Shown here piece after piece: positions 4,392 to 61,557 of a stretch of DNA of 64,000 nucleotides. The stretch is from Escherichia phage EC100: sequence record NC_105587.1; one strand, given 5' to 3'. The notes beneath the pieces are model-generated. The model made no database searches and had not been told where the DNA came from. It saw nothing but the letters and a program-made list of their open reading frames with translations. A program made the position numbers and the translations under genes. Position 1 is the first letter of the stretch, and each line of letters opens with the position of its first letter.

Positions 4392-4617
4392 AATATAAAC
4401 TCCTAGTTATTTGGGGATTGTTCCGCATTACCTGCTAGAAAGTAGCAGGTAATAAGTAACAATCCGCTCGCCAATATAATCAATTTAAAGAACTCCACGT
4501 AGGCCGCTATATCCCGTTAGGGGGCGGGATGCTTTATGGTAAGCACCGACCGTCAAATTTTATCAAGTTATCGCTCTTTTCGAACTGGGTACATCTTAAA
4601 ACCTATCGGCTAGGCTG

Positions 4618-27859: not shown

Positions 27860-28228
27860 TTACATCGCCTGAGTAAATGTACGACTAATAACGTCGTTCT
27901 GTTGTTCACGCGTCAATGCGTTAAAACGTACAGCGTACCCTGAAACACGGATAGTTAATTGAGGGTATTTTTCAGGATGTTTCTGCGCATCCAAAAGCTG
28001 ATCACGGCTTAATACATTGACATTTAGGTGCTGACCACCTTCGATTTGAGGGGCGACTTCCACTTTGACTTCACGGAAGGCTTCGGGATCGAATTGTGGT
28101 GTGATACCTTCTAGATCTTCAACTAGAACTTTCTGTTTAAGTTCACCATTGTCGGAGTATAGCTGAATAATCTGATTTTCATGAACAAGGTTAATTACGC
28201 CAGATTTAAGATTTTGATATGCTTTCAT
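27860..28228 (-). CDS. autonomous glycyl-radical cofactor (GrcA/YfiD-like)
   Basis: 122 aa; C-terminus '[11 protein letters not shown]...[35 protein letters not shown]' nearly superimposes on E. coli GrcA. Confidence 0.8.
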
Positions 28229-28251
28229 TAGATCTCCCCGATGTTAGAATT

Positions 28252-28327
28252 TGGTAGTTAGTAGTGGATTTGAACCACTGTAGTCGCTCCGTATGAAGGA
28301 GGTGCATAACCACTCTGCCAACTAACT
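28252..28327 (-). tRNA. tRNA-Met/Ile2 (anticodon CAT)
   Basis: 7-bp acceptor stem, T-arm, anticodon loop with CAT, encoded CCA; hand-folded. Confidence 0.65.
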
Positions 28328-28423
28328 GTTATGTTTTACTAGACTAAGTAAGTATTCTTTATACTCTTTAGACCAATTAGCTTTTTTAAACTTTCCTGGA
28401 CGCATAGTCTTAATTCCTAAATT

Positions 28424-28500
28424 TGGTACTCCGGGAGGGATTTAAACCCCCGATCTCTCGGTTATCAGCCGAGTGCTTTAGATCGCTAAGCTACCGAAGC
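28424..28500 (-). tRNA. tRNA-Ile (GAT)
   Basis: acceptor stem with G-U pairs, anticodon stem CTCGG/CCGAG, loop with GAT. Confidence 0.6.
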
Positions 28501-28501
28501 A

Positions 28502-28729
28502 TTAACATTTCACAGCAGAACGTTTGCCATTTCTAGGTGCACCTGGAAGTCGTGCACGTTCTGTCATTCTTCGCTTAATCTTTGAGATATTTTCTAGTGT
28601 TTGTTTTTCAGGCTTAATACCTGAAACACTACACCACTGATTACCGTCCCATGCGGTAATGATCATAACACCATTACTCATGATCTTTTCTGTAAAAGTA
28701 ATCCTCATTATAGCAACTCGTCTAAGCAA
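28502..28729 (-). CDS. hypothetical protein
   Basis: 75-aa ORF between tRNA genes. Confidence 0.4.
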   Translation of the reverse strand: MLRRVAIMRITFTEKIMSNGVMIITAWDGNQWCSVSGIKPEKQTLENISKIKRRMTERARLPGAPRNGKRSAVKC

Positions 28730-29001
28730 GAGGTATATTTAAGTTTACCATCTTTATCTACTTTGATTTCGACTTCCGCCCGTGGTACTTGACGAACTAC
28801 ACCATGAATCATCTTATAGCGAATGCCTTTAGCTAGTTCATGATCTTTTGGAAAGACTTGCTTAACCGTTACTACCTTGTACCCATCACGCGGTGTTAGT
28901 ACAACTACTTGATCACCTTCTTTGATTTTCCAAGAGCCAGGAAATTCGTAAGTATAGCGTTGACCACCAGTTTGGAACACAACAGAAAGATAACGTTTCA
29001 T
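28708..29001 (-). CDS. hypothetical protein
   Basis: 97 aa; promoter upstream. Confidence 0.5.
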   Translation of the reverse strand: MKRYLSVVFQTGGQRYTYEFPGSWKIKEGDQVVVLTPRDGYKVVTVKQVFPKDHELAKGIRYKMIHGVVRQVPRAEVEIKVDKDGKLKYTSCLDELL

Positions 29002-29031
29002 TTGGCTTCCCTCTCATTATTTTATATAAAT

Positions 29032-29060
29032 ATTATAACAATAAATAAGAGAGAAAGCAA
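29032..29060 (-). promoter_or_regulatory. strong sigma70 early promoter
   Basis: TTGCTT/17 bp/TATAAT. Confidence 0.6.
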
Positions 29061-29075
29061 ATGAATTTTTAAATT

Positions 29076-29150
29076 TGGTGCTCCCACCAGGAATCGAACC
29101 CGGTTCAGATGCTTACAAGGCAACTGCATCGCCAACAATGCTTTAGGAGC
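29076..29150 (-). tRNA. tRNA-Thr (TGT)
   Basis: acceptor stem, T-arm CCGGG-TTCGATT-CCTGG, anticodon loop with TGT. Confidence 0.6.
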
Positions 29151-29161
29151 GATAGCCCGTT

Positions 29162-29326
29162 ATTTCAACGGGATTTCTTTTTCAATAACAGGAGACTTAT
29201 CAGTCATAACTGTCATTGCCATTTGTTGTAGAAATTCAAAGGTGAAGGCTACACGTTCTTCACCAATCTCTACTTCGACACGTTTCTTTTGTTTATCGAT
29301 CTTGACTTTTAGGTTATCAGCCATCT
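29162..29326 (-). CDS. small hypothetical protein
   Basis: ~54-aa ORF found manually, start overlaps upstream gene end. Confidence 0.35.
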
Positions 29327-29538
29327 TCGGGTTCTCGTTGCTGCGCTACTTCTAGCCAGTCTGGTAGAAGAAACTTTGTACGAAATTCTTCGTAAGTTTC
29401 TTTGGGATAAAAGCTAAAACCTCCTTTTTCGTCATTCAGGATAACAGAGCCGTCAGTTTGTTCATATGCTCGGTATGTTTCTCCAATAACAATAACTCGT
29501 TTATCGGTACTTTTATTACGAAATTCAAAAACGTGCAT
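29317..29538 (-). CDS. hypothetical protein
   Basis: 73-aa ORF. Confidence 0.45.
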   Translation of the reverse strand: MHVFEFRNKSTDKRVIVIGETYRAYEQTDGSVILNDEKGGFSFYPKETYEEFRTKFLLPDWLEVAQQREPEDG

Positions 29539-29554
29539 AACATTTCCTTAAAGT

Positions 29555-29630
29555 TGGAGCGGCTAGAGGGAATCGAACCCTACTCAGCGAGGCTTGGAAG
29601 GCCTGCGACACAACCCGTGTGCTTAACCGC
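29555..29630 (-). tRNA. tRNA-Gly (TCC)
   Basis: acceptor stem, anticodon loop CTTCCAA. Confidence 0.6.
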
Positions 29631-29638
29631 TTATTATT

Positions 29639-29714
29639 TGGCTGGAGAAGGAGGAATCGAACCTACCATTAACGGAGTCAAAGGCCGCTGTGCTAACCGT
29701 TACACTACTCTCCA
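29639..29714 (-). tRNA. tRNA-Gln (TTG)
   Basis: U1-A72 acceptor start typical of tRNA-Gln, anticodon loop with TTG. Confidence 0.6.
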
Positions 29715-29720
29715 ATTATT

Positions 29721-29796
29721 TGGCTGGGATGCCACGGATCGAACGTGGAACCTTCGGAGTCAGAGGCCGACGATCTGCCAATTGATCTACATCCCA
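29721..29796 (-). tRNA. tRNA-Gln (CTG)
   Basis: acceptor TGGGATG/CATCCCA, anticodon loop CTCTGAC. Confidence 0.6.
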
Positions 29797-29808
29797 ATAA
29801 TTTTTATT

Positions 29809-30003
29809 CTACGGAAAAATTGTTGTTGGCTCAGATTCTTCCAAACGTTTGCCTTCATGATCTACTCGAATAACTCCGCATCCCTCGCAAATCACAACAG
29901 CACCGTAGCCTTCTTTAACTTCAGCTTCTGTAATCAAACCAGAAAGATCACCAGTATCTCTGCCCCACATATCAATGGAGCATTGTTTGCAGAAATCAGC
30001 CAT
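29809..30003 (-). CDS. small Cys-rich (zinc-ribbon-like) protein
   Basis: 64 aa; 'CKQCS...CEGCG'. Confidence 0.45.
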   Translation of the reverse strand: MADFCKQCSIDMWGRDTGDLSGLITEAEVKEGYGAVVICEGCGVIRVDHEGKRLEESEPTTIFP

Positions 30004-30028
30004 ATTTTATTTCCTATTTAAGTTAATT

Positions 30029-30105
30029 TGGGGTGGCTAGTGGAATTCGAATCCACATAGGCCTGATTCACAATCAGGATCATTAACCAATTATGATATA
30101 GCCAC
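30029..30105 (-). tRNA. tRNA-His (GTG)
   Basis: acceptor GTGGCTA/TAGCCAC, anticodon arm CCTGA-TTGTGAA-TCAGG. Confidence 0.7.
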
Positions 30106-30470
30106 AATTGAAAACTCGCAGGGTTAGCGAAACCTTCCTCAATTAGCATGTTCTAGAATACTAATCAAGTTATCTCCTATTGCACGCAGCTCAAGACGAG
30201 TACGAATTTTCAATTGTGGCGGCTCTCAGAAACTCTTCTACTCTAGCCTTAGCAGCTTACTCCCGAACGCATGTCGGGGAAGTCTTACTAAGCGCATCAA
30301 ATAGCACCGTTACACTTTGAGCCATTGGTGTATCAAGAAGCAGAAGGACTTGAACCTTCACGAGATAGACCATTTATCTCAGCCGCTTTATGAGGTATGT
30401 TGCAGGGAGTGGATGTTCCCTATAAACCTTTTAGGCAGCCCCGTCTACCGATTCCGGCATACTTCAAGAT

Positions 30471-30565
30471 TTGGAGGTAGGTAAGGGGATCGAACCCTTA
30501 CACCGTATCACTACGATCAACCGATTTCAAGTCGGAGTCCAGCGCCAGCCATTGGATTGACCTAC
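30471..30565 (-). tRNA. tRNA-Ser (TGA), class II
   Basis: acceptor GGTAGGT/ACCTACC, long variable arm, anticodon loop CTTGAAA. Confidence 0.6.
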
Positions 30566-30577
30566 CATATAAGTTAT

Positions 30578-30668
30578 TTGGCGGAAGAGGAGGGATTTGA
30601 ACTCTCAAGCCGTTTTACCAGTCAGCCACTTTCCAAGCGGTTTTCGTCGCCAATTCGATTTGCTCTTC
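30578..30668 (-). tRNA. tRNA-Ser (GGA), class II
   Basis: acceptor GGAAGAG/CTCTTCC, long variable arm, anticodon loop TTGGAAA. Confidence 0.5.
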
Positions 30669-30689
30669 CAATAATAAGATGATGCCTCT

Positions 30690-30765
30690 ATCACACCAGG
30701 CAGTTACGCCTCGCTGGGATTCGAACCCATTAAAACAGCTCAACCGAGATAGTAGGTTTAATTTA
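30690..30765 (-). tRNA. tRNA-like element, identity unresolved
   Basis: canonical T-arm but no pairing acceptor partner found by hand. Confidence 0.3.
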
Positions 30766-30771
30766 CTCTGA

Positions 30772-30848
30772 CCATCAAATTTGGTGCGTGACAAGGGATT
30801 CGAACCCTCAAAACCCGACTTCTAAGGACGGTATGTATGCCAATTCCA
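30772..30848 (-). tRNA. tRNA, anticodon probably TAG (Leu?)
   Basis: acceptor GCGTGAT/GTCACGC and T-arm clear; D-arm atypical. Confidence 0.45.
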
Positions 30849-30853
30849 TCAAT

Positions 30854-30928
30854 CACGCGTATTTGGTGGACAAAGAGGGACTCGAACCCTCCCTACCAGA
30901 TTGCAAGTCTGGTGTGCTCCCGCTGACA
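30854..30928 (-). tRNA. tRNA-Ala (TGC)
   Basis: acceptor with G3-U70, anticodon arm CCAGA-CTTGCAA-TCTGG. Confidence 0.7.
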
Positions 30929-31176
30929 CTATTCGCCCAAATTCTTTAGTTTACTAAGGCTATTAGCTCGGCGTAACTACAGCACCTTCGCTTCGAGCGG
31001 AAGGAACTGCGTCATCTCGCAAACCCAATACACTATTCAGTTGCCACTGAATCTAGTGGACTAATCTAGAACTTCTCCCAAATCGTAGGGATCGTGCTTT
31101 TTGGCAGCCAGTCCTAGGTCGAGCTAATACCTTAGTGAACTATGATGAGGATTTCTCCTCATCAATTTATATAAAT

Positions 31177-31205
31177 ATTATAACAAGAAATTAAGCATCA
31201 AGCAA
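31177..31205 (-). promoter_or_regulatory. strong sigma70 early promoter
   Basis: TTGCTT/17 bp/TATAAT; reads into a tRNA/small-ORF block. Confidence 0.6.
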
Positions 31206-31223
31206 CTGCGTTTTTCTTGAAAT

Positions 31224-31302
31224 TGGTAGATCGCCTGGGACTCGAACCCAGAACCTTCCGATTAAAAGTCGGATGCTACTAAACCTATTGAGCTAGCGAT
31301 CT
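31224..31302 (-). tRNA. tRNA-Lys (TTT)
   Basis: acceptor AGATCGC/GCGATCT, anticodon arm TCCGA-CTTTTAA-TCGGA. Confidence 0.65.
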
Positions 31303-31303
31303 A

Positions 31304-31471
31304 TTAGTAACCATTGTATACTTCTTTAATAGAGTGAACTTTCAAGTAAGGGTGATTAGTATTAAACTCTGACATTACTTCATCCCAATTTTTACCATAA
31401 TGGGCAAGTAAAGATTTTGATGTATTCTTACCTAAACGTTTGTCACTTACTACTAATCGAAATACTTTCAT
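31304..31471 (-). CDS. small hypothetical protein
   Basis: ~55-aa ORF found manually between tRNA-Lys and tRNA-Met. Confidence 0.35.
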   Translation of the reverse strand: MKVFRLVVSDKRLGKNTSKSLLAHYGKNWDEVMSEFNTNHPYLKVHSIKEVYNGY

Positions 31472-31491
31472 TTCGAAATCCTCTATTAAAA

Positions 31492-31569
31492 TGGAAGCGG
31501 GTGCAGGAATCGAACCTACCTCTTTCTAGCTTATGAGACTAGCGATCTCTACCAGAGATCTAACCCGCA
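31492..31569 (-). tRNA. tRNA-Met/fMet/Ile2 (CAT)
   Basis: T-arm and anticodon arm CTAGT-CTCATAA-GCTAG; 5' acceptor register uncertain by 1 nt. Confidence 0.55.
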
Positions 31570-31575
31570 GTTGTT

Positions 31576-31653
31576 TGGTCTCCGTGGGAGGATTTGAACC
31601 CCCGACCCTATCGCCCCAAACGAAACGCTCTGGCCAAACTGAGCTACACGGAG
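31576..31653 (-). tRNA. tRNA-Pro (TGG)
   Basis: acceptor CTCCGTG/CACGGAG, anticodon loop TTTGGGG. Confidence 0.6.
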
Positions 31654-31814
31654 AATATTATTTCTTCAACCACAACAAAGATAAGCCCAGCATACTAAAG
31701 CTGCTAACTAATCCAATACATTTTTCTTCTATAGTAAAAGTATCTAGATTAAATGCTGTTATAGCTATTGGTATACACCATAATGCCATAAAAACTTGAG
31801 CTATCTTGTGTTTC
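31653..31814 (-). CDS. small membrane protein
   Basis: ~53-aa hydrophobic ORF found manually; promoter upstream. Confidence 0.4.
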
Positions 31815-31848
31815 ATTTTGCTTTCCTTCTCTTCACTTTATAAAATAT

Positions 31849-31877
31849 ATTATACAGAGAATTAAGCATAATAGCAA
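31849..31877 (-). promoter_or_regulatory. strong sigma70 early promoter
   Basis: TTGCTA/17 bp/TATAAT. Confidence 0.6.
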
Positions 31878-32269
31878 ATAAATTTTTAATAAATTTACTT
31901 ATTGTGTAGGCCACCTGGAGGCTATGAACCCCACGGCTGACAAAGAAGTTTGCGAGACCTCTCTTAAATGCCAGAATAGACCCGCCGATCTATCGGAACC
32001 TACATAATAAGTAAACTTTATAGTGTCATTCTAGACAGGACTCGAACCTGTTATCACTTGTGCGGACTTACGAGAACCATTCTTTCACTCGAATCGAACG
32101 AGCTTCTGCCCTCGCCAAGCTGGTTTCCCCATCAACCACGCTAGAATGTTTGATTGTTTTCAGTGCAAGAGTCCGAGTCTTGGACACGACCGCTTCGCAA
32201 GTACATAGGCAGCTTATCATGAGTCAGCACTTCCGAATTGCTAGCTCCGTGTTCTGCACTGAAATTTTG

Positions 32270-32617
32270 TTAATTTAATAGTAATGTATGATCTACTTCA
32301 CCATTAATTGTTCGGCATTCCTCTGGAATTGCTGGTGTAGTCTTATATTCCCACCATTCAGAACCATCATATTCACCACGTTCTAACCAAGTTCCATCAG
32401 TAAACCATACGTTACCATAAAGCAATTGTCCACCGAAACCAGAATCATATTTAAAGTCTAGATTATTTAGAAAATCTTCAATATCTTTTTCTGTATAACC
32501 TACGGGTAATACCCAAACTTCTTTGTCCCCATAATAACCGAATTCTATTTTAATACACTTAATTTCAGAATTAATATTCTTTAGGGCAAGTAATAATTCT
32601 TCTTTAGCATTAATCAT
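32270..32617 (-). CDS. hypothetical protein
   Basis: 115-aa ORF. Confidence 0.5.
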   Translation of the reverse strand: MINAKEELLLALKNINSEIKCIKIEFGYYGDKEVWVLPVGYTEKDIEDFLNNLDFKYDSGFGGQLLYGNVWFTDGTWLERGEYDGSEWWEYKTTPAIPEECRTINGEVDHTLLLN

Positions 32618-32643
32618 AGCATATTTCTCGTGCTAGTTTAGTT

Positions 32644-32719
32644 TGGTACACCCACTAGGACTTGAACCTAGAACCCTCCGCTTAAGAGGCGGTAGCTCTA
32701 ACCATTGAGCTATGGATGT
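32644..32719 (-). tRNA. tRNA, anticodon CTT (Lys?)
   Basis: acceptor ACATCCA/TGGGTGT, D-arm GCTC/GAGC, anticodon loop CTCTTAA. Confidence 0.5.
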
Positions 32720-32720
32720 A

Positions 32721-32879
32721 TTAAATTACTTTTTCCAGTTCATCAGCTATGGCTTTGATTTTTTCAAAGTTTACATCACTAATAATGATACCTTCCAGTG
32801 ATAGAGATATTCTAGCATTTTTCGTAGCAGATTCTTTTATCTGCTCTATATCTTCTGGAGTAAACTCTCTACGTTCCAT
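32721..32879 (-). CDS. small acidic protein
   Basis: ~52-aa ORF found manually next to a tRNA. Confidence 0.35.
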   Translation of the reverse strand: MERREFTPEDIEQIKESATKNARISLSLEGIIISDVNFEKIKAIADELEKVI

Positions 32880-32896
32880 AGCTAACCTACCTTATT

Positions 32897-32973
32897 TGGC
32901 GCGACCGATGGGATTTGAACCCACATTCCCTCCCGTGACAGGGGAGTACCATTACCAAGCCAGCCCCGGTCGC
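32897..32973 (-). tRNA. tRNA-Asp (GTC)
   Basis: acceptor GCGACCG/CGGTCGC, anticodon arm CTCCC-CTGTCAC-GGGAG. Confidence 0.65.
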
Positions 32974-32982
32974 ATAATTCAT

Positions 32983-33168
32983 TTACTCAGCTTTGAGTTT
33001 TTCAATAGCTGCATTAAGTTCTTTAAGAAACTCTTTTCGTACATTAAGACGGTTGAGACTTACTAGTATATCATGTTTAAGTTCTTCGATGTATTTCTTC
33101 TCAACTTCAATATTGTTGATAGTGCTATCACGATGAACTTCTAGCTGCGCAATTACATTCTTGGACAT
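32983..33168 (-). CDS. small coiled-coil protein
   Basis: 61-aa ORF. Confidence 0.4.
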   Translation of the reverse strand: MSKNVIAQLEVHRDSTINNIEVEKKYIEELKHDILVSLNRLNVRKEFLKELNAAIEKLKAE

Positions 33169-33270
33169 GCTTGTTTCCTCAGTTATTAATGAAAATGGTA
33201 TCTGTGGCTGGATTCGATGTCAGCAATGATAGCTGGTTGGCTACCGGTTTACTTAACTCTACACAGAATT

Positions 33271-33353
33271 TGGCGGGCCGTGTAGGATTCGAACCTACGT
33301 TGTCTTTCGACATGGATTAACAGTCCACCGCCAAACCGCTTGGCTAACGACCC
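33271..33353 (-). tRNA. tRNA, anticodon GTT (Asn?) with unusually long variable arm
   Basis: acceptor, D-arm, anticodon loop CTGTTAA, 13-nt variable region. Confidence 0.5.
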
Positions 33354-33505
33354 TGAATTTGTATTGCTGACTAGGATTTTCACCTAGACGGAGTTAGCAC
33401 CGTAGCGTGTAGCGGCATACCTCTCCAAACCGTGCCTCATCTTTCAATTACGGAGACAGTGTTCCTACGCGTGCCTGAATTGATTTAACAATTCTTTCAG
33501 CAAAT

Positions 33506-33581
33506 TGGACGACCGCATGAGATTTGAACTCACATAAAAAGGATTTGCAATCCTTCGCCTAAGCCATTCAGCCAACGGTCG
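33506..33581 (-). tRNA. tRNA-Cys (GCA)
   Basis: acceptor, anticodon arm AGGA-TTGCAAA-TCCT. Confidence 0.6.
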
Positions 33582-33629
33582 GTTTATCTTGTTCTGTCAT
33601 GTTGCTTCTCCAGTTCAATTTATGTAATT

Positions 33630-33658
33630 ATTATACAGAACTTTTGGAAACTAAGCAA
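33630..33658 (-). promoter_or_regulatory. strong sigma70 early promoter
   Basis: TTGCTT/17 bp/TATAAT. Confidence 0.6.
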
Positions 33659-33938
33659 CTACATTTTTTAAGAATTTGATGCCTTTCTTTTTCTTCTTAT
33701 ATTTCCACGTTAATGGATTCTGTCGATTATGAACGCTTGAGATCTTTGTCTCGTCAAAGTTCTTCAATACCATGTAATCACAAGATAATTGTTTTAATGG
33801 AATGTGATCACCGTCAAAAGCGTATACATAAGGCTGTTGACTAGCACGATAATGATAGACTTTGTTAATTCTACGTTTCAGCAACTTATCCGCGCAGTAA
33901 ATAAAGAAGTTTTCAGGATGCATCAGCAGCTCCCTCAA
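33651..33938 (-). CDS. hypothetical protein
   Basis: 95 aa; promoter upstream. Confidence 0.5.
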   Translation of the reverse strand: MRELLMHPENFFIYCADKLLKRRINKVYHYRASQQPYVYAFDGDHIPLKQLSCDYMVLKNFDETKISSVHNRQNPLTWKYKKKKKGIKFLKNVVA

Positions 33939-33940
33939 TT

Positions 33941-34015
33941 TGGTGCACCCTGTTCGTATCGAACGAACCTCTCAAGCTCTTCAGGCAAGCGCTAATCCAT
34001 CTCAGCTAAAGGTGC
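33941..34015 (-). tRNA. tRNA-Phe (GAA), tentative
   Basis: acceptor and D-arm fit; anticodon loop CTGAAGA but stem has two U-U mismatches. Confidence 0.45.
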
Positions 34016-34101
34016 AAATTTTGGCAGGGGTAAAGGTATTCGAAACCTTTTCATGGGTTTTGGAGGCCCATTTGCAACCTATGCGTACCCCAATTATTAA
34101 T

Positions 34102-34176
34102 TGGCACACCCAACGAGGATCGAACTCGTGTTCCCACTGTGAAAGAGTGGTGTCCTAACCGCTAGACGATAGGTGC
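34102..34176 (-). tRNA. tRNA-Glu (TTC)
   Basis: acceptor, anticodon arm CCACT-CTTTCAC-AGTGG. Confidence 0.6.
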
Positions 34177-34183
34177 ATTAAAT

Positions 34184-34271
34184 TGGTGGGCGTTAATGGA
34201 GTCGAACCACTCGAGTCGCAATGACCAGGGATTTACAATCCCCTCCGCTACCACTTACGGAATAAACGCCC
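34184..34271 (-). tRNA. tRNA-Tyr (GTA), class II
   Basis: acceptor GGGCGTT/AACGCCC, long variable arm, anticodon loop TTGTAAA. Confidence 0.6.
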
Positions 34272-34399
34272 ATATTTAGAAGTATTCAAATACTAGTTTA
34301 AACACTTTTAAATATGTTTCCAAATTAGATAACTATTATATCAAGTTTTAAGGCACTGAGCAAGTAAGATTTTGAAGAACTTGCTCAGTGCTGTATTAG

Positions 34400-34675
34400 T
34401 TAGTCGAACTTAGGAGTGACAGATAAGGAGAACGGAAGTTCAAAAACTTCTTCACCCTCATTACTAACGGTAACTACACGACCTTTAAGTTCAGACATTG
34501 AAATATCAATATCAGCTTTTGCATCTGGAGACATGCCAGCTTCAACACATTTAGCTTTAACTTCCGGAAGGAGTTCTACATCGTAGAAATAAAGCCATTC
34601 AATCTCACCTTCCCAGCCTTCCCAGGATTTACAGATTGCACTTTCAATACCAGTTGCTATAACACGATTTTGCAT
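34400..34675 (-). CDS. hypothetical protein
   Basis: 91 aa; promoter upstream. Confidence 0.5.
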   Translation of the reverse strand: MQNRVIATGIESAICKSWEGWEGEIEWLYFYDVELLPEVKAKCVEAGMSPDAKADIDISMSELKGRVVTVSNEGEEVFELPFSLSVTPKFD

Positions 34676-34705
34676 TCGTTAACTCCTTCATCAATTTATA
34701 TAACT

Positions 34706-34735
34706 ATTATACCAGAAATTTAAAGCAAAAGGCAA
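34706..34735 (-). promoter_or_regulatory. sigma70 early promoter
   Basis: TTGCCT/18 bp/TATAAT. Confidence 0.5.
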
Positions 34736-34765
34736 GTACATTTTTAAAAATTCTGTTCGGAGGAG

Positions 34766-34972
34766 CTAAACTCCAGATTCTTCTGCCAAGTCTAGACTAA
34801 TAAGAGTTATAGCCATAATTGCTGCACCGTGTTCTTTTTCTCCGGTGTTTTTAGCAGAGTCTATAATAGTCTTAATCTGTTCGTAATAGCCTTTTACTTC
34901 TTGTTCAATACCTGCCTCGGCTATCATGCCTTTAGTCATGATTCGTTGCATAGTAATTTCACGGTTAGCCAT
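34766..34972 (-). CDS. hypothetical protein
   Basis: 68-aa ORF. Confidence 0.45.
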   Translation of the reverse strand: MANREITMQRIMTKGMIAEAGIEQEVKGYYEQIKTIIDSAKNTGEKEHGAAIMAITLISLDLAEESGV

Positions 34973-35132
34973 GTTGTTTCTCCAGCTTCATTTTTAATAG
35001 TTTACAAATGAAATCAACGTCTTCATCTGTACCTAGATCTCTATCTTCAAGGGTTGCCTTGAAATTTTTCGTTAGTTCCATAAGAATAACTTCCCTAGAA
35101 CGACGTGTTGGCGGAGGTGGATGTCTATACAT
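34965..35132 (-). CDS. small proline-rich protein
   Basis: ~55-aa ORF found manually; AAGGA RBS; stop overlaps downstream start. Confidence 0.4.
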   Translation of the reverse strand: MYRHPPPPTRRSREVILMELTKNFKATLEDRDLGTDEDVDFICKLLKMKLEKQHG

Positions 35133-35161
35133 CTTAATTCCTTAACTTGGTAGGGGTTATA

Positions 35162-35845
35162 TCATCTATTTTTCTTAATACTTTTAGGATCTTTCCCTGT
35201 TAGGGACTTATACCTTTTCCTTAATCCAGTATCAGACAATCCTAGTTCTTTGGAGGCACGAATCCAGGAATATTTAGATACCCAGTACTCTATTTGCTCC
35301 ACAGTAATATCTGGATTTATAGTTATCTCTTTAGGAGTACATGATTTACAGTGTGTTGCTCTTGAGCTAATTTCGCAGTGACAAATAGCACACGTATTTA
35401 CAGTCCTTTCTGTATACCTGCCAATATTTTTGCCTGCATGAGTAGGTGTTAGTGCATGGCAATTTGGGCATAGGAAGGCTAAGTTATCCCATTCATTATT
35501 ATAGTGATTTCCATCCTTGTGTTCAAGTTCTAAAGGAATTGGTTTATCTAACCAACTTTCTAAGCCACAACTCTCACATTTATGTGGTTTTAGCCCCTCG
35601 TTAAGAATTTTATTCTTTAGTTTATAGGAAGAAATAGGGCTGCCGTTATATAAATACTCTGTTGCAGACTTATATTTATTATCATACTGCCTATTCGCAG
35701 GAATAACTACTATTCCTAGTTTTCCTAAATATGCTTCCAAAGTGTTCGAGGAGCAGGATAGCATTCTTGCTATCTCTGCTTTAGATTTTCCCTGAGCTAT
35801 CCACTGAGCTATTTCTTCCTTTCTATCTAGTATATCAGTTCTCAT
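35162..35845 (-). CDS. HNH homing endonuclease with N-terminal HTH
   Basis: 227 aa; 'ELEHKDGNHYNNEWDNLAFLCPNCH' plus extra Cys pairs; embedded in tRNA cluster. Confidence 0.7.
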   Translation of the reverse strand: MRTDILDRKEEIAQWIAQGKSKAEIARMLSCSSNTLEAYLGKLGIVVIPANRQYDNKYKSATEYLYNGSPISSYKLKNKILNEGLKPHKCESCGLESWLDKPIPLELEHKDGNHYNNEWDNLAFLCPNCHALTPTHAGKNIGRYTERTVNTCAICHCEISSRATHCKSCTPKEITINPDITVEQIEYWVSKYSWIRASKELGLSDTGLRKRYKSLTGKDPKSIKKNR

Positions 35846-35868
35846 AGTTTATGACTTTATAATTAAGT

Positions 35869-35946
35869 TGGTGGCTCCCCGAGGATTCGAACCTACGTAC
35901 CTTCCGGTTATGAGCCGGGTGCTCATACCATATGAGCTTGAGAACC
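35869..35946 (-). tRNA. tRNA-Met/Ile2 (CAT)
   Basis: acceptor GGTTCTC/GGGAGCC with G-U pairs, anticodon arm CCGG-CTCATAA-CCGG; weak T-stem. Confidence 0.5.
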
Positions 35947-35951
35947 AAAAT

Positions 35952-36041
35952 CTGGCGGAAGAAGTGGGAATCGAACCCACAAGGCTATATTTCAAACCGA
36001 CAGATTAGCAATCTGCTGCAATACCGTTATGCTATTCTTCC
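35952..36041 (-). tRNA. tRNA-Ser (GCT), class II
   Basis: acceptor GGAAGAA/TTCTTCC, long variable arm, anticodon loop TTGCTAA. Confidence 0.6.
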
Positions 36042-36056
36042 GAATTTATAAGATAT

Positions 36057-36085
36057 ATTATATTAGAAATTTAGCTTCATAGCAA
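36057..36085 (-). promoter_or_regulatory. strong sigma70 early promoter
   Basis: TTGCTA/17 bp/TATAAT; reads into tRNA-Ser/tRNA-Met. Confidence 0.6.
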
Positions 36086-57933: not shown

Positions 57934-57957
57934 TTTTTATTAGTTGACCTCTGATTA

Positions 57958-57985
57958 CCGAGTCATTTTGGCTCGGTTTTCTCTA
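57958..57985 (+). terminator. rho-independent terminator
   Basis: CCGAGTCA-TTTTG-GCTCGG then TTTTCT. Confidence 0.55.
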
Positions 57986-58024
57986 TGCTCAAAGACACTG
58001 ATAGCACCATCCGGAAAATTTTAC

Positions 58025-58053
58025 TTGCAGGATGCCCAAAATCTTGATATAAT
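58025..58053 (+). promoter_or_regulatory. putative extended -10 sigma70 promoter
   Basis: TTGCAG/17 bp/TGaTATAAT; ~490 nt upstream of GTG 58551. Confidence 0.4.
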
Positions 58054-58550
58054 ATTTATATTGAATTGAGAGACATTAGTAAAAATTGATTTTGCTAATT
58101 TTTCTTGTTTACAATCCGCGATACGGAACAGTTAGGCTGCCCCATTAAGGGTTGTTTTAACTATTACTAGTGTTTATATTGCATTAGTTAATCTTCAATT
58201 AAGTGATCTGTGTACCCTGAATTCGGAAAGGTAAATCCAAACCGTGCATATTTAGCTCGTTATATAGGCAGAGTTTTATATGGGGGTGCGAACGAAAAGA
58301 GCAGCGAATGGCGGCACGTACAGTAGTCACCTACCAATAGGATAGTGAGGACAAATAGAATCGGCTTAGCGGCCAATGACCTAGGTTCTATTCTGTATAT
58401 GAGCGAAGAGAGCACAGCACTGAGATATGATAACTTATTCATATTGTTTGATGATAATTGATGTTTACGTAAATAGTAGTAATAGTTGTTCTATTCTTTC
58501 TGAATAGTCCTAAAGAAAAGATTTCGATTAACCAACACAGGAGTATTGTT

Positions 58551-60389
58551 GTGTTTTCTATCCTTCAAGGTCACGCCGGATTTTCTCGTGATTTAGCAAC
58601 AGGTATTTGGCGAGAAATCAAAGCGGAAGATTATACCTTTGCCAAGCGATTCTCGAAAGAGCATCCAGAAGGTAAACCAGCTTCTATGCCCTTCAAATTT
58701 GATGTAATAGAAGAGCACGACCCACAAAGCCTTGCCGAAATGTTACCCCTTATGAGACGTTTAACGTCTGACCCTCATATCGTTGCGGTACGAGGTCGAT
58801 GTCTTGCACCTAAAAATAATGTGCGACGTAAGAAAGGTAACTTTAATGTATCTAATCCTAGTAATATTATTGCTATGGACGTGGATGGTATCCTAGATAC
58901 CGGTGGGTACGACAAATTTAATCTTGTTGGTATGGCCCGCCACATTATTAAGATGTTGAATAGTATTAGTGAGGATATGTTTCCTCTTGATGCAGGCTTT
59001 ATAGCTCATGCATCATCTTCGGCTGGGCTAAAACCAGGTATCCGAATGCACTTAATGCTAGAATCTAACGTCAAGGTAACTCAGGGTCAGCTAAAGTTCT
59101 TATTTACATCTATCAACGATAGTAGTAAGCAAAAATTTGGTTTTGATATTGCCGACCTAGCTTATTATTCATCTGTCCAGCTCCACTATTTTGCCGACCC
59201 CTTATTTAGCGATGGTATTGTTGATCCGTTTAAAGCGGAGAGTAAGCCACGTCTGGTGTATGTTAAAGGTTCGAAAGTAAATTTGCCCAATAATCTAGTT
59301 GACTATGAAACAACTAGAGGGGAGTTTAAGGAAGAGTTTTATTCTTTACTTGATCAAATTAAAGGCAAAAAGATTGCTTCTGATAAAGTAGAAGAAACCA
59401 TCAGCGAGTTAGAAGAGGCTGATGATGGAGTGTATTTGCGTATTATCCCCAAACTATACCATAGAGCATTAGAGGATGGTGTTGATTTTGCATGGCTAGA
59501 ACGTGAGATTAAACCAGCTTTATCTGAATATATTGCAACTAAAGATAACAGTCGTAATATTCAAGATTACTTTAATAACGGTCGTAAGCAGGCTCTCAAA
59601 GCGTTTGTTAATAATTCTAAACGTGAGATTCCATTAAATCTGAAAGGTGTTCCACTTAAGAAATTAGAAGTGGATTCTCCACCAGAAGTTCCATACCTGA
59701 AGATTAATATTGTGCCCCCAAAAGGCCATATAACATTTGTTAAGGCAAGTCTTGGTACGGGTAAAACTACGGCAGTAACTAAATGGCTGGACGCAGGTGT
59801 TCTTCCGGGCAACTTTTTAGCAGTTACAAATACTAGAGCACTGGTATCTTCAAATGCCAAGAAATTTAGTGCAGGACAATACGATAAGTCTGTAGATATG
59901 CTCAACTTTAAGCGTGGAGCTATTGATCGTATGTCCACAACTATTCACTCTTTGCATAAGTTCAAAAGTTTTATTGGGCAAATAGACACCATTTTTATTG
60001 ATGAATGTGACGCTGTAATGAATGACCTATTATTCGCCCCTGTTGTTAAACAACGTCGTGAGTGTATTCAAGTTCTACGTGACATCCTCATGACAGCTAA
60101 GACTGTAATCTTATCCGATGGTGATATTAGTGCTGAGACGATTGAAGCATATGGTTCTCTAATTGATTTTGATAAACCGGTTGCATTTTATAATCATCAC
60201 CGTAAAATGCTGTCAAAAGCTCATGCTTATGAGTTCCCTGATGAGTCCAGTATTTGGGTTGCACTTCAGACTTCTCTAGAGATGGGTGAGAAATCTATTC
60301 TAGTATCTGATTGTGGCCCGGATGAGCTAAATGAGAAAGGTATGGCACTGCGTCGTAATACGGGTGCGTTAGTTAAGGAAATCCATTGA
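58551..60389 (+). CDS. replication protein, N-terminal part (primase-polymerase-like plus P-loop NTPase)
   Basis: GTG start after ACAGGAG RBS; 'IAMDVDG' and 'HASSSAG..IRMHLM' (AEP-like), Walker A 'SLGTGKTT', Walker B 'IFIDECD'; ends at TGA 60387-60389. Confidence 0.6.
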   Translation: MFSILQGHAGFSRDLATGIWREIKAEDYTFAKRFSKEHPEGKPASMPFKFDVIEEHDPQSLAEMLPLMRRLTSDPHIVAVRGRCLAPKNNVRRKKGNFNVSNPSNIIAMDVDGILDTGGYDKFNLVGMARHIIKMLNSISEDMFPLDAGFIAHASSSAGLKPGIRMHLMLESNVKVTQGQLKFLFTSINDSSKQKFGFDIADLAYYSSVQLHYFADPLFSDGIVDPFKAESKPRLVYVKGSKVNLPNNLVDYETTRGEFKEEFYSLLDQIKGKKIASDKVEETISELEEADDGVYLRIIPKLYHRALEDGVDFAWLEREIKPALSEYIATKDNSRNIQDYFNNGRKQALKAFVNNSKREIPLNLKGVPLKKLEVDSPPEVPYLKINIVPPKGHITFVKASLGTGKTTAVTKWLDAGVLPGNFLAVTNTRALVSSNAKKFSAGQYDKSVDMLNFKRGAIDRMSTTIHSLHKFKSFIGQIDTIFIDECDAVMNDLLFAPVVKQRRECIQVLRDILMTAKTVILSDGDISAETIEAYGSLIDFDKPVAFYNHHRKMLSKAHAYEFPDESSIWVALQTSLEMGEKSILVSDCGPDELNEKGMALRRNTGALVKEIH

Positions 60390-60404
60390 AACTCTACCTC
60401 AGAT

Positions 60405-61340
60405 GTGGATATTCGACGTATTCTGGATTACACAACTAATGAACTAATTGATCAACAAATTGATTGCTTATTATGTAGTCCATCCGTAACGAGTGGTGTT
60501 GACTTTAACTATTTTGATAACGTATTTGTGATTACTAGAACTAGTAATCAAGCGCCAAACATGCGTTTCCAAGCAATCAGGCGCGACCGTGGTGCTCAGA
60601 ATATCTATTATTTTATTGATAAATCCACTAGTGGATTCTCCGCAGGTTCTGAACAATATAATATTGATGAGGGTTGGCTGGAGTTAGCACAGCAATTATA
60701 TGCACGTCGCAGGGAGCTGGAATCTAGGAACTATACTAGTACTTTACGTTATTACTTGCTTGATCAGGGTGCAACTATTGATATTTTCAGTGAAAGCTGG
60801 GGAACTATTGAAGGTGCTGGTAAAGAGTACACAGAAGAGCGAATCAAAGCTATTCTGCACTCAACTCCTGATTATTGTGCTCCACGTCATGCGGATGCGT
60901 ATGAAGCTAAGCTACTTCTTGTTCGCTATTATCATCTCGAGTCTATTAAAGATGTAACAGTTGAGCATGTTGAACAATATATAAAAGATAAACCGAATGA
61001 TCGAGCTGCATTCTTCCATAAGATGCACGAGATGTTCTGGGAAGATATTAAGAAGTGTTCAAATGTGACCATTAAACCATTCATAGAGGCTCTGAAAGGT
61101 AAGAAGAAAGATTTCTTCCTTAAAACCGGTCAGAGTGCTAACCCAAAATATGCTAGAATGTATCTTGGCATGATGGGTATTGGTAAGGATATGAACACGG
61201 AGAATATCGTAGACTGGTACAGAACCTACTGTAAAATCGAGTGTATGCCAATTCCTTATAAATTCATGACTGACGAGGAAAAACATATGCACGATGAAGC
61301 AATGTCAGAGCTAGGTGCTAGAAATGACAGTGAAGAATAA
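60405..61340 (+). CDS. replication protein, C-terminal part (same frame as 58551..60389)
   Basis: 311 aa; in frame with upstream ORF, separated by a single TGA plus 5 codons. Confidence 0.5.
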   Translation: MDIRRILDYTTNELIDQQIDCLLCSPSVTSGVDFNYFDNVFVITRTSNQAPNMRFQAIRRDRGAQNIYYFIDKSTSGFSAGSEQYNIDEGWLELAQQLYARRRELESRNYTSTLRYYLLDQGATIDIFSESWGTIEGAGKEYTEERIKAILHSTPDYCAPRHADAYEAKLLLVRYYHLESIKDVTVEHVEQYIKDKPNDRAAFFHKMHEMFWEDIKKCSNVTIKPFIEALKGKKKDFFLKTGQSANPKYARMYLGMMGIGKDMNTENIVDWYRTYCKIECMPIPYKFMTDEEKHMHDEAMSELGARNDSEE

Positions 61341-61557
61341 AAAATGGGAAACAAGGAAGTTTCCAGTAAAAGAACGTAAAGTTCCTGTTTATGATACTTC
61401 GGAAAAGCTATGTAGGGTGGTACCACATAGATTAGCTGGTATCCCTAACATATCCGAGTGGTTACTTAAACAACGGAGGACTAACGTATCTCTTCGCATA
61501 GGGTTTGAGTTAGATAAAGTATATGCTGAACTTTCTTCTTTGCTCAAGGAATCGTAA
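61324..61557 (+). CDS. hypothetical protein
   Basis: ORF trimmed to internal Met; overlaps end of previous gene. Confidence 0.35.
   Translation: MTVKNKKWETRKFPVKERKVPVYDTSEKLCRVVPHRLAGIPNISEWLLKQRRTNVSLRIGFELDKVYAELSSLLKES

What the first reader, a model, noticed from the sequence alone, without database searches (positions are those of the whole stretch)
58551..61340. Primase/helicase-like replication gene interrupted by a single in-frame TGA
ORFs 58551-60389 and 60405-61340 are in the same frame; only one stop (TGA at 60387-60389) and five sense codons separate them. The upstream part carries AEP-like primase motifs and Walker A/B, and the downstream part continues as a plausible C-terminal domain. 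The options are programmed TGA read-through giving a ~929-aa fusion alongside a truncated form, a genuine nonsense mutation, a sequencing error, or two adjacent genes with the second starting at GTG. I found no tRNA with a TCA anticodon in the cluster.
Basis: seen in the sequence. Interest (0 to 1): 0.6.

Follow-up and report, generated by a model that had tools for sequence, protein, structure and literature searches.

The report
One-base stop in T5-type helicase gene
A well-known phage replication gene (the T5 D2 / origin-binding helicase) carries a stop codon caused by one base change seen only in this deposited genome, so it is a private mutation or base-call error and not a programmed read-through signal.

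Summary
Frame 58551-61340 is open except for TGA at 60387-60389, followed by five sense codons and a GTG.

It is one gene, not two. It is the ortholog of the phage T5 D2 / T5.108 "replication origin binding protein", a characterised bipolar SF2 helicase. Every relative examined encodes it as a single protein of about 900-1050 aa.

The window is Escherichia phage EC100 (OK665835.1). Its four near-identical sibling isolates (EC104, EC105, EC122, EC142) match it at every base of 58400-61500 except 60388, where they have C. That gives TCA (Ser613).
- All 36 IMG/VR relatives have a Ser codon at this position.
- 58 homologues down to 30% identity have S, K or A there, between invariant His612 and Ser615.

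The stop lies inside the second RecA-like helicase domain, upstream of motif V and the arginine finger.
- The downstream GTG has no ribosome-binding site and is not conserved.
- No tRNA has a UCA anticodon, and there is no RNA structure 3' of the TGA.
- TGA ends 9 of 51 genes checked here, so it is a normal stop in this genome.

Verdict: a private C-to-G substitution. A real opal mutation and a consensus error are about equally likely. The public reads (SRP394492) would decide. Programmed read-through and a two-gene layout are not supported.

The parts
58539..58543 (+). Shine-Dalgarno sequence (AGGAG) of the gene, 7 nt upstream of the GTG start
   Evidence: Sequence read. Anti-SD duplex energy is -6.9 kcal/mol, within the range of neighbouring annotated starts.
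58551..60386 (+). Codons 1-612 of the D2/obp gene. They cover the AEP-like domain, a helical (HTH) domain, RecA-like domain 1 and the first third of RecA-like domain 2.
   Evidence: phrog_3712 positions 1-613. PF02399 at residues 389-533. Structure model.
58551..59300 (+). N-terminal AEP / PrimPol-like domain (codons 1-250). Invariant residues are D110, D112, S155, S157, H167 and D202.
59745..59768 (+). Walker A / motif I (A399-T406, ASLGTGKT)
   Evidence: Positions match T5 D2 motif I as described in PMC3632103.
60000..60011 (+). Walker B / motif II (D484 E485 C486 D487)
60387..60389 (+). In-frame TGA at codon 613. The middle base 60388 is G here and C (TCA, Ser) in EC104, EC105, EC122 and EC142.
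   Evidence: Ser codon in 36/36 IMG/VR relatives. S/K/A in 58 homologues.
60390..61340 (+). Codons 614-929 plus the TAA stop of the same gene: the rest of RecA-like domain 2 (motifs V and VI) and the helical C-terminal domain.
   Evidence: phrog_3712 positions 615-927. CyRepA1 profile continues at 244-328. Against relatives, codon differences are 35:1 and 42:1 synonymous:non-synonymous.
60405..60407 (+). GTG that opens the mechanical downstream ORF. It is Val619 of the intact protein and not a real start codon.
   Evidence: No SD sequence (anti-SD dG +0.4 versus -2.9 to -10.7 for annotated starts). The column is variable, and the codon is GTA in many relatives.
60477..60506 (+). Helicase motif V (S643-F652, SPSVTSGVDF)
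   Evidence: Invariant S643, P644, S645, G649, D651. T5 D2 motif V at 632-653 in PMC3632103.
60570..60593 (+). Helicase motif VI / arginine finger (Q674-G681, QAIRRDRG)
   Evidence: Invariant Q674, A675, R678, R680. T5 D2 arginine finger at 668-682 in PMC3632103.

Best explanation
Positions 58551-61340 are one gene. It is the Escherichia phage EC100 copy of the T5 D2 / T5.108 'replication origin binding protein'. The protein has an AEP-like N-terminal domain, a helical domain, a UL9-like SF2 helicase core and a helical C-terminal domain. The T5 protein is a characterised bipolar DNA helicase.

In this one deposited genome, codon 613 reads TGA instead of TCA (Ser) because of a single C-to-G difference at 60388. 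This is a private, recent point change. It is not an evolved recoding signal and not a gene boundary.

Two branches remain that I cannot separate from sequence, each at roughly even odds:
(a) The base is real in the sequenced stock. Ribosomes then mostly terminate after His612. The 612-aa product lacks motifs V and VI, so it should not couple ATP hydrolysis to unwinding. The phage would depend on the basal leakiness of UGA in E. coli (near-cognate reading by tRNA-Trp; own knowledge) to make a little full-length protein with Trp at a position that tolerates S, K or A.
(b) The base is a consensus or deposit error, and the phage has the normal TCA.

Shown here: one gene, a private substitution, the position inside the helicase core, and the absence of recoding signals. 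Inferred: the consequences for the protein, and which branch applies.
For: - Identity of the window: the exact 612-aa and 311-aa products are NCBI UIS74164.1 and UIS74165.1 of Escherichia phage EC100. This genome is OK665835.1.
- Private base: EC104, EC105, EC122 and EC142 match the window at 3100 of 3101 bases in 58400-61500, and the only difference is 60388 G versus C. All four records annotate one CDS at 58551..61340.
- Codon 613 is TCA, TCT or TCC in 36/36 IMG/VR relatives. It is S38 / K11 / A9 in 58 homologues, between invariant H612 and S615.
- All 73 homologous clusters are single proteins covering 92-100% of the query. In 60 phage records sampled evenly from 482, none has two annotated features across the site.
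- A degenerate 26-mer with TGA finds 0 matches in IMG/VR, the metagenome-contig collection and GTDB genomes. The same pattern with TCA finds 30 and 10 matches in the first two.
- Purifying selection runs through both halves in one frame: 29:0 and 52:0 synonymous:non-synonymous codon differences upstream, 35:1 and 42:1 downstream.
- The stop follows strand 608-611 inside RecA-like domain 2 of a confident model (pLDDT 87.4). The best structural match is HSV-1 UL9 (E 2.6e-15).
- Motif V and the arginine finger lie downstream of the stop.
- No SD before the GTG, no UCA tRNA, and no structure 3' of the TGA (z -0.81).
- TGA ends 9 of the 51 CDS checked, and this is the only one of those 51 with an internal stop.
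Against: The genome was assembled from MiSeq reads at 433x coverage after three rounds of plaque purification. That makes a simple consensus error less likely than in low-coverage data, and it implies the stock grew well.

A real stop would have to be tolerated. Amber mutants assigned to D2 are reported to make no DNA (PMC3632103). However, the assignment of genetic D2 to this ORF differs between T5 records.

Nothing here measures read-through or protein products. The reads themselves could not be inspected.
Confidence: 0.93

Rival explanations
1. Branch (b) of the best explanation, listed separately so it can be tested on its own. The G at 60388 is a sequencing, assembly or consensus error (or a minority variant called as consensus), and phage EC100 really has TCA.
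For: - The base is unique among five near-identical genomes from one laboratory.
- The 14 differences among these genomes in the first 64 kb look unfiltered by selection: 10 transversions to 4 transitions and 6 non-synonymous to 2 synonymous. One adjacent pair of positions (4503-4504) has three states.
- A null allele of a strictly conserved replication gene is hard to reconcile with a plaque-purified, high-titre stock.
Against: Coverage was 433x Illumina, and the change is a substitution outside any homopolymer. Consensus substitution errors are rare under these conditions (own knowledge). Very recent real mutations also show non-synonymous:synonymous ratios near the random expectation.
Confidence: 0.45
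2. Programmed UGA read-through. The phage deliberately makes a 612-aa truncated protein plus a minor 929-aa fusion, as in Q-beta A1-type read-through.
For: - A single in-frame UGA with an open frame beyond it.
- UGA is the leakiest stop codon in E. coli (own knowledge).
- The base after the stop is A, whereas the 9 genuine TGA terminators checked are followed by T or G.
Against: - No relative has a stop here: 36/36 Ser codons, 58/58 sense residues, and 4/4 siblings with TCA on an otherwise identical 3.1 kb.
- Flanking bases are identical to the TCA-bearing siblings, so no context has co-evolved.
- There is no significant structure 3' of the stop and no suppressor tRNA.
- The stop cuts a RecA-like domain in the middle instead of falling at a domain boundary.
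Confidence: 0.02
3. Two adjacent genes, or a split helicase. The 612-aa protein and a 311-aa protein started at GTG 60405 (by an RBS or by termination-reinitiation) are made separately and assemble into an active enzyme.
For: The depositors annotated two CDS, 'hypothetical protein' and 'DNA primase C'. The GTG lies only 15 nt after the stop, a distance at which bacterial ribosomes can sometimes reinitiate (own knowledge).
Against: - No SD sequence (dG +0.4 versus -2.9 to -10.7 for real starts).
- The GTG is a variable Val619 codon, GTA in many relatives.
- No homologue is split.
- The break lies within the beta-sheet of RecA-like domain 2, so neither fragment would contain a complete domain.
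Confidence: 0.02
4. The UGA encodes selenocysteine, or is read by a phage-encoded opal suppressor tRNA.
For: In-frame UGA. The phage carries a large tRNA cluster and one unclassified tRNA-like element at 40158-40229 (-).
Against: - No SECIS-like hairpin after the UGA (MFE -10.3 kcal/mol, z -0.81).
- Homologues have Ser, Lys or Ala, never Cys, at this position.
- None of the 20 tRNAs has anticodon UCA.
- My reading of the tRNA-like element (sequence, alignment) finds no pairable anticodon stem and no UCA in an anticodon position.
- TGA terminates 9 of the 51 genes checked.
Confidence: 0.005

Closest known systems
Bacteriophage T5 D2 protein / T5.108 'replication origin binding protein' (AAU05245, AAS77154; Wong, Sayers & Sanders 2013, PMC3632103)
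   Same: It is the same gene in the same genomic position, with 97.5% nucleotide identity. The domain order and motif positions also match: Walker A 396-406, Walker B 475-489, motif V 632-653 and arginine finger 668-682. The T5 protein is an experimentally shown bipolar SF2 helicase.
   Different: T5 and all other relatives have an uninterrupted ORF of about 928-930 codons. Here codon 613 is TGA. T5 also carries an HNH endonuclease gene (hegI) directly downstream, which is absent here.
Herpes simplex virus 1 UL9 origin-binding protein (PF02399; PDB 9hgj, 9hgi)
   Same: It is the best structural match of the full-length model (Foldseek E 2.6e-15). It is also the only significant PDB sequence match (E 1.4e-5 over profile positions 386-524). 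Both have a two-RecA SF2 helicase core followed by a C-terminal domain.
   Different: Identity is only 14-16%. UL9 has no AEP-like N-terminal domain. UL9 is unidirectional (3'-5') whereas T5 D2 is bipolar (PMC3632103).
AEP primase-helicase fusion proteins (vaccinia D5 / mpox E5, PDB 8xig and 8hwa; human PrimPol 7jk1)
Programmed UGA read-through in phages (for example the Q-beta A1 protein; own knowledge)
   Same: An in-frame UGA with an open reading frame continuing beyond it.
   Different: In such systems the stop and its context are conserved and both products have roles. Here the stop occurs in one genome only and destroys a domain.
Classical nonsense (amber/opal) mutants of phage replication genes
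   Same: A single-base nonsense codon in a replication gene. T5 amber D2 mutants are reported to make no net DNA (PMC3632103).
   Different: Those mutants were selected on suppressor hosts. EC100 is a wild isolate propagated on ECOR4, and no suppressor is known to be present.

Membership tests
T5 D2 / obp family (PHROG 3712; UL9-like SF2 helicase, PF02399) | Full-length collinear similarity to the family profile | tested here: met
   phrog_3712: part 1 matches positions 1-613 (E 0, 1175 bits) and part 2 matches 615-927 (E 1.3e-187). PF02399 scores 26.8 bits against a cut-off of 20.
T5 D2 / obp family (PHROG 3712; UL9-like SF2 helicase, PF02399) | Walker A (GxGKT) and Walker B (DExD) in RecA-like domain 1 | tested here: met
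   G402-T406 and D484-D487 are invariant in 58 homologues.
T5 D2 / obp family (PHROG 3712; UL9-like SF2 helicase, PF02399) | Motif V and motif VI (arginine finger) in RecA-like domain 2, on the same polypeptide | tested here: not met
   The motifs are present and invariant (S643-D651; Q674, R678, R680). In this window they lie downstream of the TGA at codon 613, so they are not on the primary translation product.
T5 D2 / obp family (PHROG 3712; UL9-like SF2 helicase, PF02399) | Single uninterrupted ORF of about 900-1050 codons | tested here: not met
   There is one internal TGA here. All 73 homologous clusters, four siblings and 36 IMG/VR relatives are uninterrupted.
T5 D2 / obp family (PHROG 3712; UL9-like SF2 helicase, PF02399) | DNA-stimulated ATPase and bipolar unwinding activity | not testable with these tools
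   Shown for the T5 protein only (PMC3632103).
Archaeo-eukaryotic primase (AEP) superfamily, for the N-terminal domain | AEP catalytic fold | tested here: inconclusive
   [not shown]
Archaeo-eukaryotic primase (AEP) superfamily, for the N-terminal domain | Motif I DxD, motif II SxH-type, motif III acidic residue | tested here: met
   D110, D112, S155, S157, H167 and D202 are invariant across 58 homologues. Assigning them to the AEP motifs rests on my own knowledge of the superfamily. It was not checked by structural superposition of residues.
Archaeo-eukaryotic primase (AEP) superfamily, for the N-terminal domain | Match to a curated AEP sequence profile | tested here: not met
   No Pfam or NCBIfam AEP/PrimPol model matches at E <= 0.1 or E <= 1 respectively.
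Programmed stop-codon read-through | The stop codon is conserved among orthologs | tested here: not met
   Of 36 IMG/VR relatives, 4 siblings and 58 homologues, none has a stop. There are 0 matches to the TGA pattern in three collections, against 30 and 10 for TCA in two of them.
Programmed stop-codon read-through | Stimulatory 3' context or RNA structure | tested here: not met
   The 71-nt fold has MFE -10.3 kcal/mol and z -0.81. The flanks are identical to the TCA-bearing siblings.
Programmed stop-codon read-through | Both the short and the extended product are made and are functional | not testable with these tools
   This needs a Western blot, mass spectrometry or a reporter assay.
Selenocysteine or suppressor-tRNA decoding of UGA | SECIS hairpin directly 3' of the UGA, or a tRNA with anticodon UCA | tested here: not met
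   TGA is a normal terminator for 9 of the 51 CDS checked.
Two separate genes (split helicase) | Ribosome-binding site and conserved start codon for the second ORF | tested here: not met
   Anti-SD dG is +0.4 at 60405 versus -2.9 to -10.7 at 16 annotated starts. The codon is a variable Val619, GTA in many relatives.
Two separate genes (split helicase) | The split lies at a domain boundary and recurs in orthologs | tested here: not met
   The stop lies after strand 608-611 inside RecA-like domain 2. No split orthologs were found.

The most novel reading that the evidence does not exclude
The TGA is real in the EC100 stock, and the phage still grows well on ECOR4. One possibility is that the 612-aa AEP-plus-RecA1 fragment, alone or with a reinitiated C-terminal fragment, is sufficient. 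That would mean the ATP-driven helicase activity of D2 is dispensable or can work as a split enzyme. The other possibility is that about 1% UGA read-through supplies enough enzyme. Either way EC100 would be a natural separation-of-function or hypomorphic allele of a universally conserved Demerecviridae replication gene.
Probability: 0.1. Interest if true: 0.4.

Novelty: already known. Interest (0 to 1): 0.1.

Why it matters
Mostly it matters for annotation. The EC100 record splits a conserved, biochemically characterised replication helicase into a 'hypothetical protein' and a 'DNA primase C'. Gene-content comparisons would therefore count a spurious gene pair.

If the stop is real, EC100 and its isogenic siblings form a ready-made natural pair. 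EC142 was isolated on the same host, ECOR4. The pair could be used to test how much D2 helicase a T5-like phage needs and how leaky UGA is in a natural E. coli isolate.

A separate point is that the N-terminal domain has an AEP/PrimPol-like fold, which the 2013 characterisation of T5 D2 does not mention. This suggests a primase-helicase initiator and is worth a biochemical test.

Tried and rejected
1. A planted or corrupted copy of EC122. The window differs from ON185583.1 at only 9 of 64000 bases, one of which makes the stop, so I suspected an altered copy. I rejected this when the exact 612-aa and 311-aa products turned up in NCBI under Escherichia phage EC100, a fifth sibling that the 'phages' searches did not return. 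Four of the 9 differences are shared with EC104 or EC105.
2. An apparent breakpoint at the same site in phage SUT_E420 (H100). It is an assembly gap of Ns in a partial genome.
3. 'hypothetical protein (x3)' under the match in MT233524.1. This is not a split; the gene is one CDS there.
4. The record's 'tRNA-OTHER' at 40158-40229 (-) as an opal suppressor. It matches Rfam tRNA at 35.5 bits, but ARAGORN does not call it. By my reading of the sequence it has no pairable anticodon stem and no UCA in an anticodon position.
5. SECIS or a read-through-stimulating structure. There is none.
6. Sequence-profile detection of the AEP domain. Pfam, NCBIfam and a PDB profile search gave nothing N-terminal. 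Only the fold comparison did.
7. The look-up of encoding contigs for the 612-aa product gave nothing on record. The listing of cluster members then found it.
8. Iterons or repeats in the 617-bp non-coding stretch upstream (57934-58550), as a possible origin for an 'origin-binding protein'. I found only weak two-copy matches and no excess of promoter-like sites.
9. The E. coli genome collection has no copy of the region.
Full report
OBSERVATION

The description is accurate. The ORF listing reports 58551..60389 (+, GTG start, 612 aa) and 60405..61340 (+, GTG start, 311 aa). Translating 58551-61340 in one frame gives 929 sense codons' worth of protein with a single internal stop at codon 613. The sequence reads ...AAG GAA ATC CAT TGA AAC TCT ACC TCA GAT GTG GAT..., with TGA at 60387-60389 and five sense codons before the GTG at 60405.

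The gene start at 58551 has a good Shine-Dalgarno sequence, AGGAG at 58539-58543.

WHAT THE GENE IS

The 3.1-kb region matches 453 phage records, nearly all Tequintavirus / Demerecviridae. There it is annotated as 'replication origin binding protein', '5'-3' and 3'-5' helicase', 'DNA primase' or 'hypothetical protein'.

In T5 it is T5.108. The AY692264 annotation names it D2.

Wong, Sayers and Sanders (PMC3632103) purified the 928-aa T5 protein. They showed that it is a DNA-stimulated ATPase and a bipolar helicase, and that a Walker A K405E mutant is dead. They placed the motifs as follows:
- Walker A at 396-406
- Walker B at 475-489
- motif V at 632-653
- the arginine finger at 668-682

Both halves of the window's frame match one PHROG profile collinearly: phrog_3712 positions 1-613 and 615-927. 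One NCBIfam helicase-domain profile, CyRepA1, also matches both halves, at positions 2-197 and 244-328. Pfam finds Herpes_ori_bp (PF02399) at residues 389-533.

WHERE THE WINDOW COMES FROM, AND THE KEY COMPARISON

The best database hits were Escherichia phages EC122, EC105, EC104 and EC142, with the same coordinates. Their bit score pointed to one mismatch.

Direct comparison shows that all four are identical to the window over 58400-61500 except at 60388. The window has G and they have C. Their codon 613 is therefore TCA (Ser), and each record annotates one CDS at 58551..61340.

Over 64 kb the window differs from EC122 at nine positions. Some of these are shared with EC104 or EC105. Four are private to the window against all four siblings:
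- 29020
- 42556
- 44785
- 60388

An exact-sequence look-up settled the provenance. The 612-aa and 311-aa products are NCBI proteins UIS74164.1 ('hypothetical protein') and UIS74165.1 ('DNA primase C') of Escherichia phage EC100.

The genome announcement (PMC9583813) gives these details for EC100:
- accession OK665835.1, 108,723 bp
- isolated from pond water on ECOR4
- plaque-purified at least three times
- sequenced on MiSeq at 433x coverage
- assembled de novo with CLC and annotated with RAST
- reads in SRP394492

So the stop is in a real public deposit, and the depositors' pipeline split the gene.

IS THE STOP CONSERVED? NO.

- In 36 IMG/VR relatives, codon 613 is TCA (30), TCT (4) or TCC (2).
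- In an alignment of 58 homologues down to 30% identity, the column is Ser 38, Lys 11, Ala 9. It has no gap and lies between invariant His612 and invariant Ser615.
- All 73 homologous protein clusters are single polypeptides that cover 92-100% of the query. The 58 that I aligned are 898-1050 aa long.
- In 60 phage records sampled evenly from 482, none has two annotated features over the 121 bp spanning the site. It lies under one annotated feature in all but eight. Of those eight, five have no annotation at all, two have none at this spot, and one calls the gene a tail protein.
- A degenerate 26-mer carrying TGA has no match in IMG/VR, in the metagenome-contig collection or in GTDB genomes. 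The same pattern with TCA finds 30 and 10 contigs in the first two collections.
- The intact 929-aa protein with Ser613 is identical in EC104/105/122, Salmonella phage oldekolle and others, on 12 contigs.

Against Bf23 and vB_Sen_I1, the codon differences are almost all synonymous:

| Region | Bf23 (syn:non-syn) | vB_Sen_I1 (syn:non-syn) |
|---|---|---|
| Upstream of the stop | 29:0 | 52:0 |
| Downstream of the stop | 35:1 | 42:1 |

Both halves have therefore been under very strong purifying selection as one reading frame.

WHERE THE STOP FALLS IN THE PROTEIN

An AlphaFold model of the intact ortholog (P0001, 93% identical, same length) is confident, with mean pLDDT 87.4. Its best PDB matches are the HSV-1 UL9 origin-binding protein (9hgj/9hgi, E about 1e-15), then two-RecA SF2 helicases.

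Reading the secondary structure against the motifs (my assignment) gives this layout:
- RecA-like domain 1 spans about residues 394-555.
- RecA-like domain 2 spans about residues 556-700.

Codon 613 follows strand 608-611, in the middle of domain 2. It lies before motif V (S643-F652) and motif VI (Q674-G681).

The primary product of the interrupted gene would keep these parts:
- the N-terminal domain
- the helical domain
- RecA-like domain 1
- a fragment of RecA-like domain 2

It would lose the arginine finger. By established helicase mechanism such a product should not couple ATP hydrolysis to unwinding. This is inference and was not tested.

TESTS OF THE ALTERNATIVES

Second gene starting at GTG:
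- The 18 nt upstream of 60405 have no anti-SD complementarity (+0.4 kcal/mol). Sixteen annotated starts nearby score -2.9 to -10.7.
- The codon is a variable Val619, and it is GTA in many relatives.

Suppressor tRNA:
- ARAGORN finds 20 tRNAs, none with anticodon UCA.
- The sibling records annotate a 'tRNA-OTHER' at 40158-40229 (-). It matches Rfam tRNA weakly (35.5 bits). By my reading of the sequence its anticodon arm does not pair, and there is no UCA in an anticodon position.

Selenocysteine or a stimulatory structure:
- The 71 nt from 60380 fold no better than shuffled sequence (z -0.81).
- Homologues never have Cys at this position.

Genetic code:
- TGA terminates 9 of the 51 CDS checked, always followed by T or G.
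- This gene is the only one of those 51 with an internal stop.

REAL MUTATION OR ERROR?

This is the one point I cannot settle.

For an error:
- The change is private.
- The 14 differences among the sibling genomes are transversion-rich (10:4) and mostly non-synonymous (6:2). That is what unfiltered noise would look like.
- A null allele of so conserved a gene sits badly with a plaque-purified, high-titre stock. It sits worse still if the 'no DNA synthesis' phenotype of D2 amber mutants applies to this ORF. The D2 label is attached to different ORFs in different T5 records.

For a real mutation:
- Coverage was 433x Illumina, and the change is a clean substitution.
- Very recent real mutations also look unfiltered by selection.
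- UGA is the leakiest stop codon in E. coli (own knowledge). A hypomorphic phage could therefore form plaques, with Trp inserted at a position that tolerates S, K or A.

My estimates:

| Explanation | Probability |
|---|---|
| Real mutation in the stock | about 0.48 |
| Consensus error | about 0.45 |
| Programmed read-through | 0.02 |
| Two genes / split enzyme | 0.02 |
| Anything else | 0.03 |

Mapping the public reads would decide.

THE AEP REMARK

The 2013 T5 D2 paper reports an HTH motif, coiled coils and the helicase motifs, but no primase-like domain.

VERDICT

This is a known gene with a strain-private one-base stop codon. It is not a recoding signal and not a gene boundary. Interest is low.

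The residual value has three parts:
- a correction to the EC100 annotation
- a cheap check of the public reads
- if the stop is real, a natural hypomorph of the T5-type initiator helicase

Noticed in passing
[not shown]
   Followed up: partly
40158-40229 (-): This is a tRNA-like element (Rfam tRNA 35.5 bits) that sibling records label 'tRNA-OTHER'. It has good acceptor, D and T arms, but I could not find a pairable anticodon arm, and ARAGORN does not call it. It is probably a degenerate tRNA and is not an opal suppressor.
   Followed up: partly
28000-40300 (-), tRNA cluster: ARAGORN calls tRNA-His (30029-30105), tRNA-Asp (32897-32973) and tRNA-Phe (33941-34015), which the sibling GenBank records do not annotate. 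Those records annotate a third tRNA-Met at 35872-35946 that ARAGORN does not call.
   Followed up: no
window 1-64000: 1570, 3164, 4503, 4504, 6269, 10368, 12720, 19937, 24530, 29020, 34182, 42556, 44785, 60388: The near-identical phages EC100, EC104, EC105 and EC122 differ at only 14 positions in this stretch (EC142 was compared only in part). Ten differences are transversions. Six of the eight coding differences are non-synonymous. Positions 4503-4504 show three states (GC, GG, CC). The pattern looks unfiltered by selection, which fits either very recent mutations or consensus noise.
   Followed up: partly
stop codons of 51 annotated CDS across the window: Nine genes end in TGA, always followed by T (7) or G (2) and never A. 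The internal TGA at 60387 is followed by A.
   Followed up: no
61324-61557 (+) and the T5 locus L003 4425-4943: T5 carries an HNH homing endonuclease gene (hegI) inserted directly after this gene, and EC100 and most relatives lack it. Here the next small ORF (61324-61557) overlaps the 3' end of the helicase gene by 17 nt.
   Followed up: no
57934-58550: There is a 617-bp non-coding stretch upstream of the 'origin-binding protein' gene, with a terminator-like hairpin at 57957-57977. I looked for iterons or strong repeats that might mark an origin and found only weak two-copy matches.
   Followed up: partly
L049 (OQ990039.1, phage SUT_E420) 923-3776: In this partial genome the same gene is unannotated and interrupted by runs of N, so homology ends at almost exactly the position of the EC100 stop. 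This is an assembly gap and not biology.
   Followed up: yes
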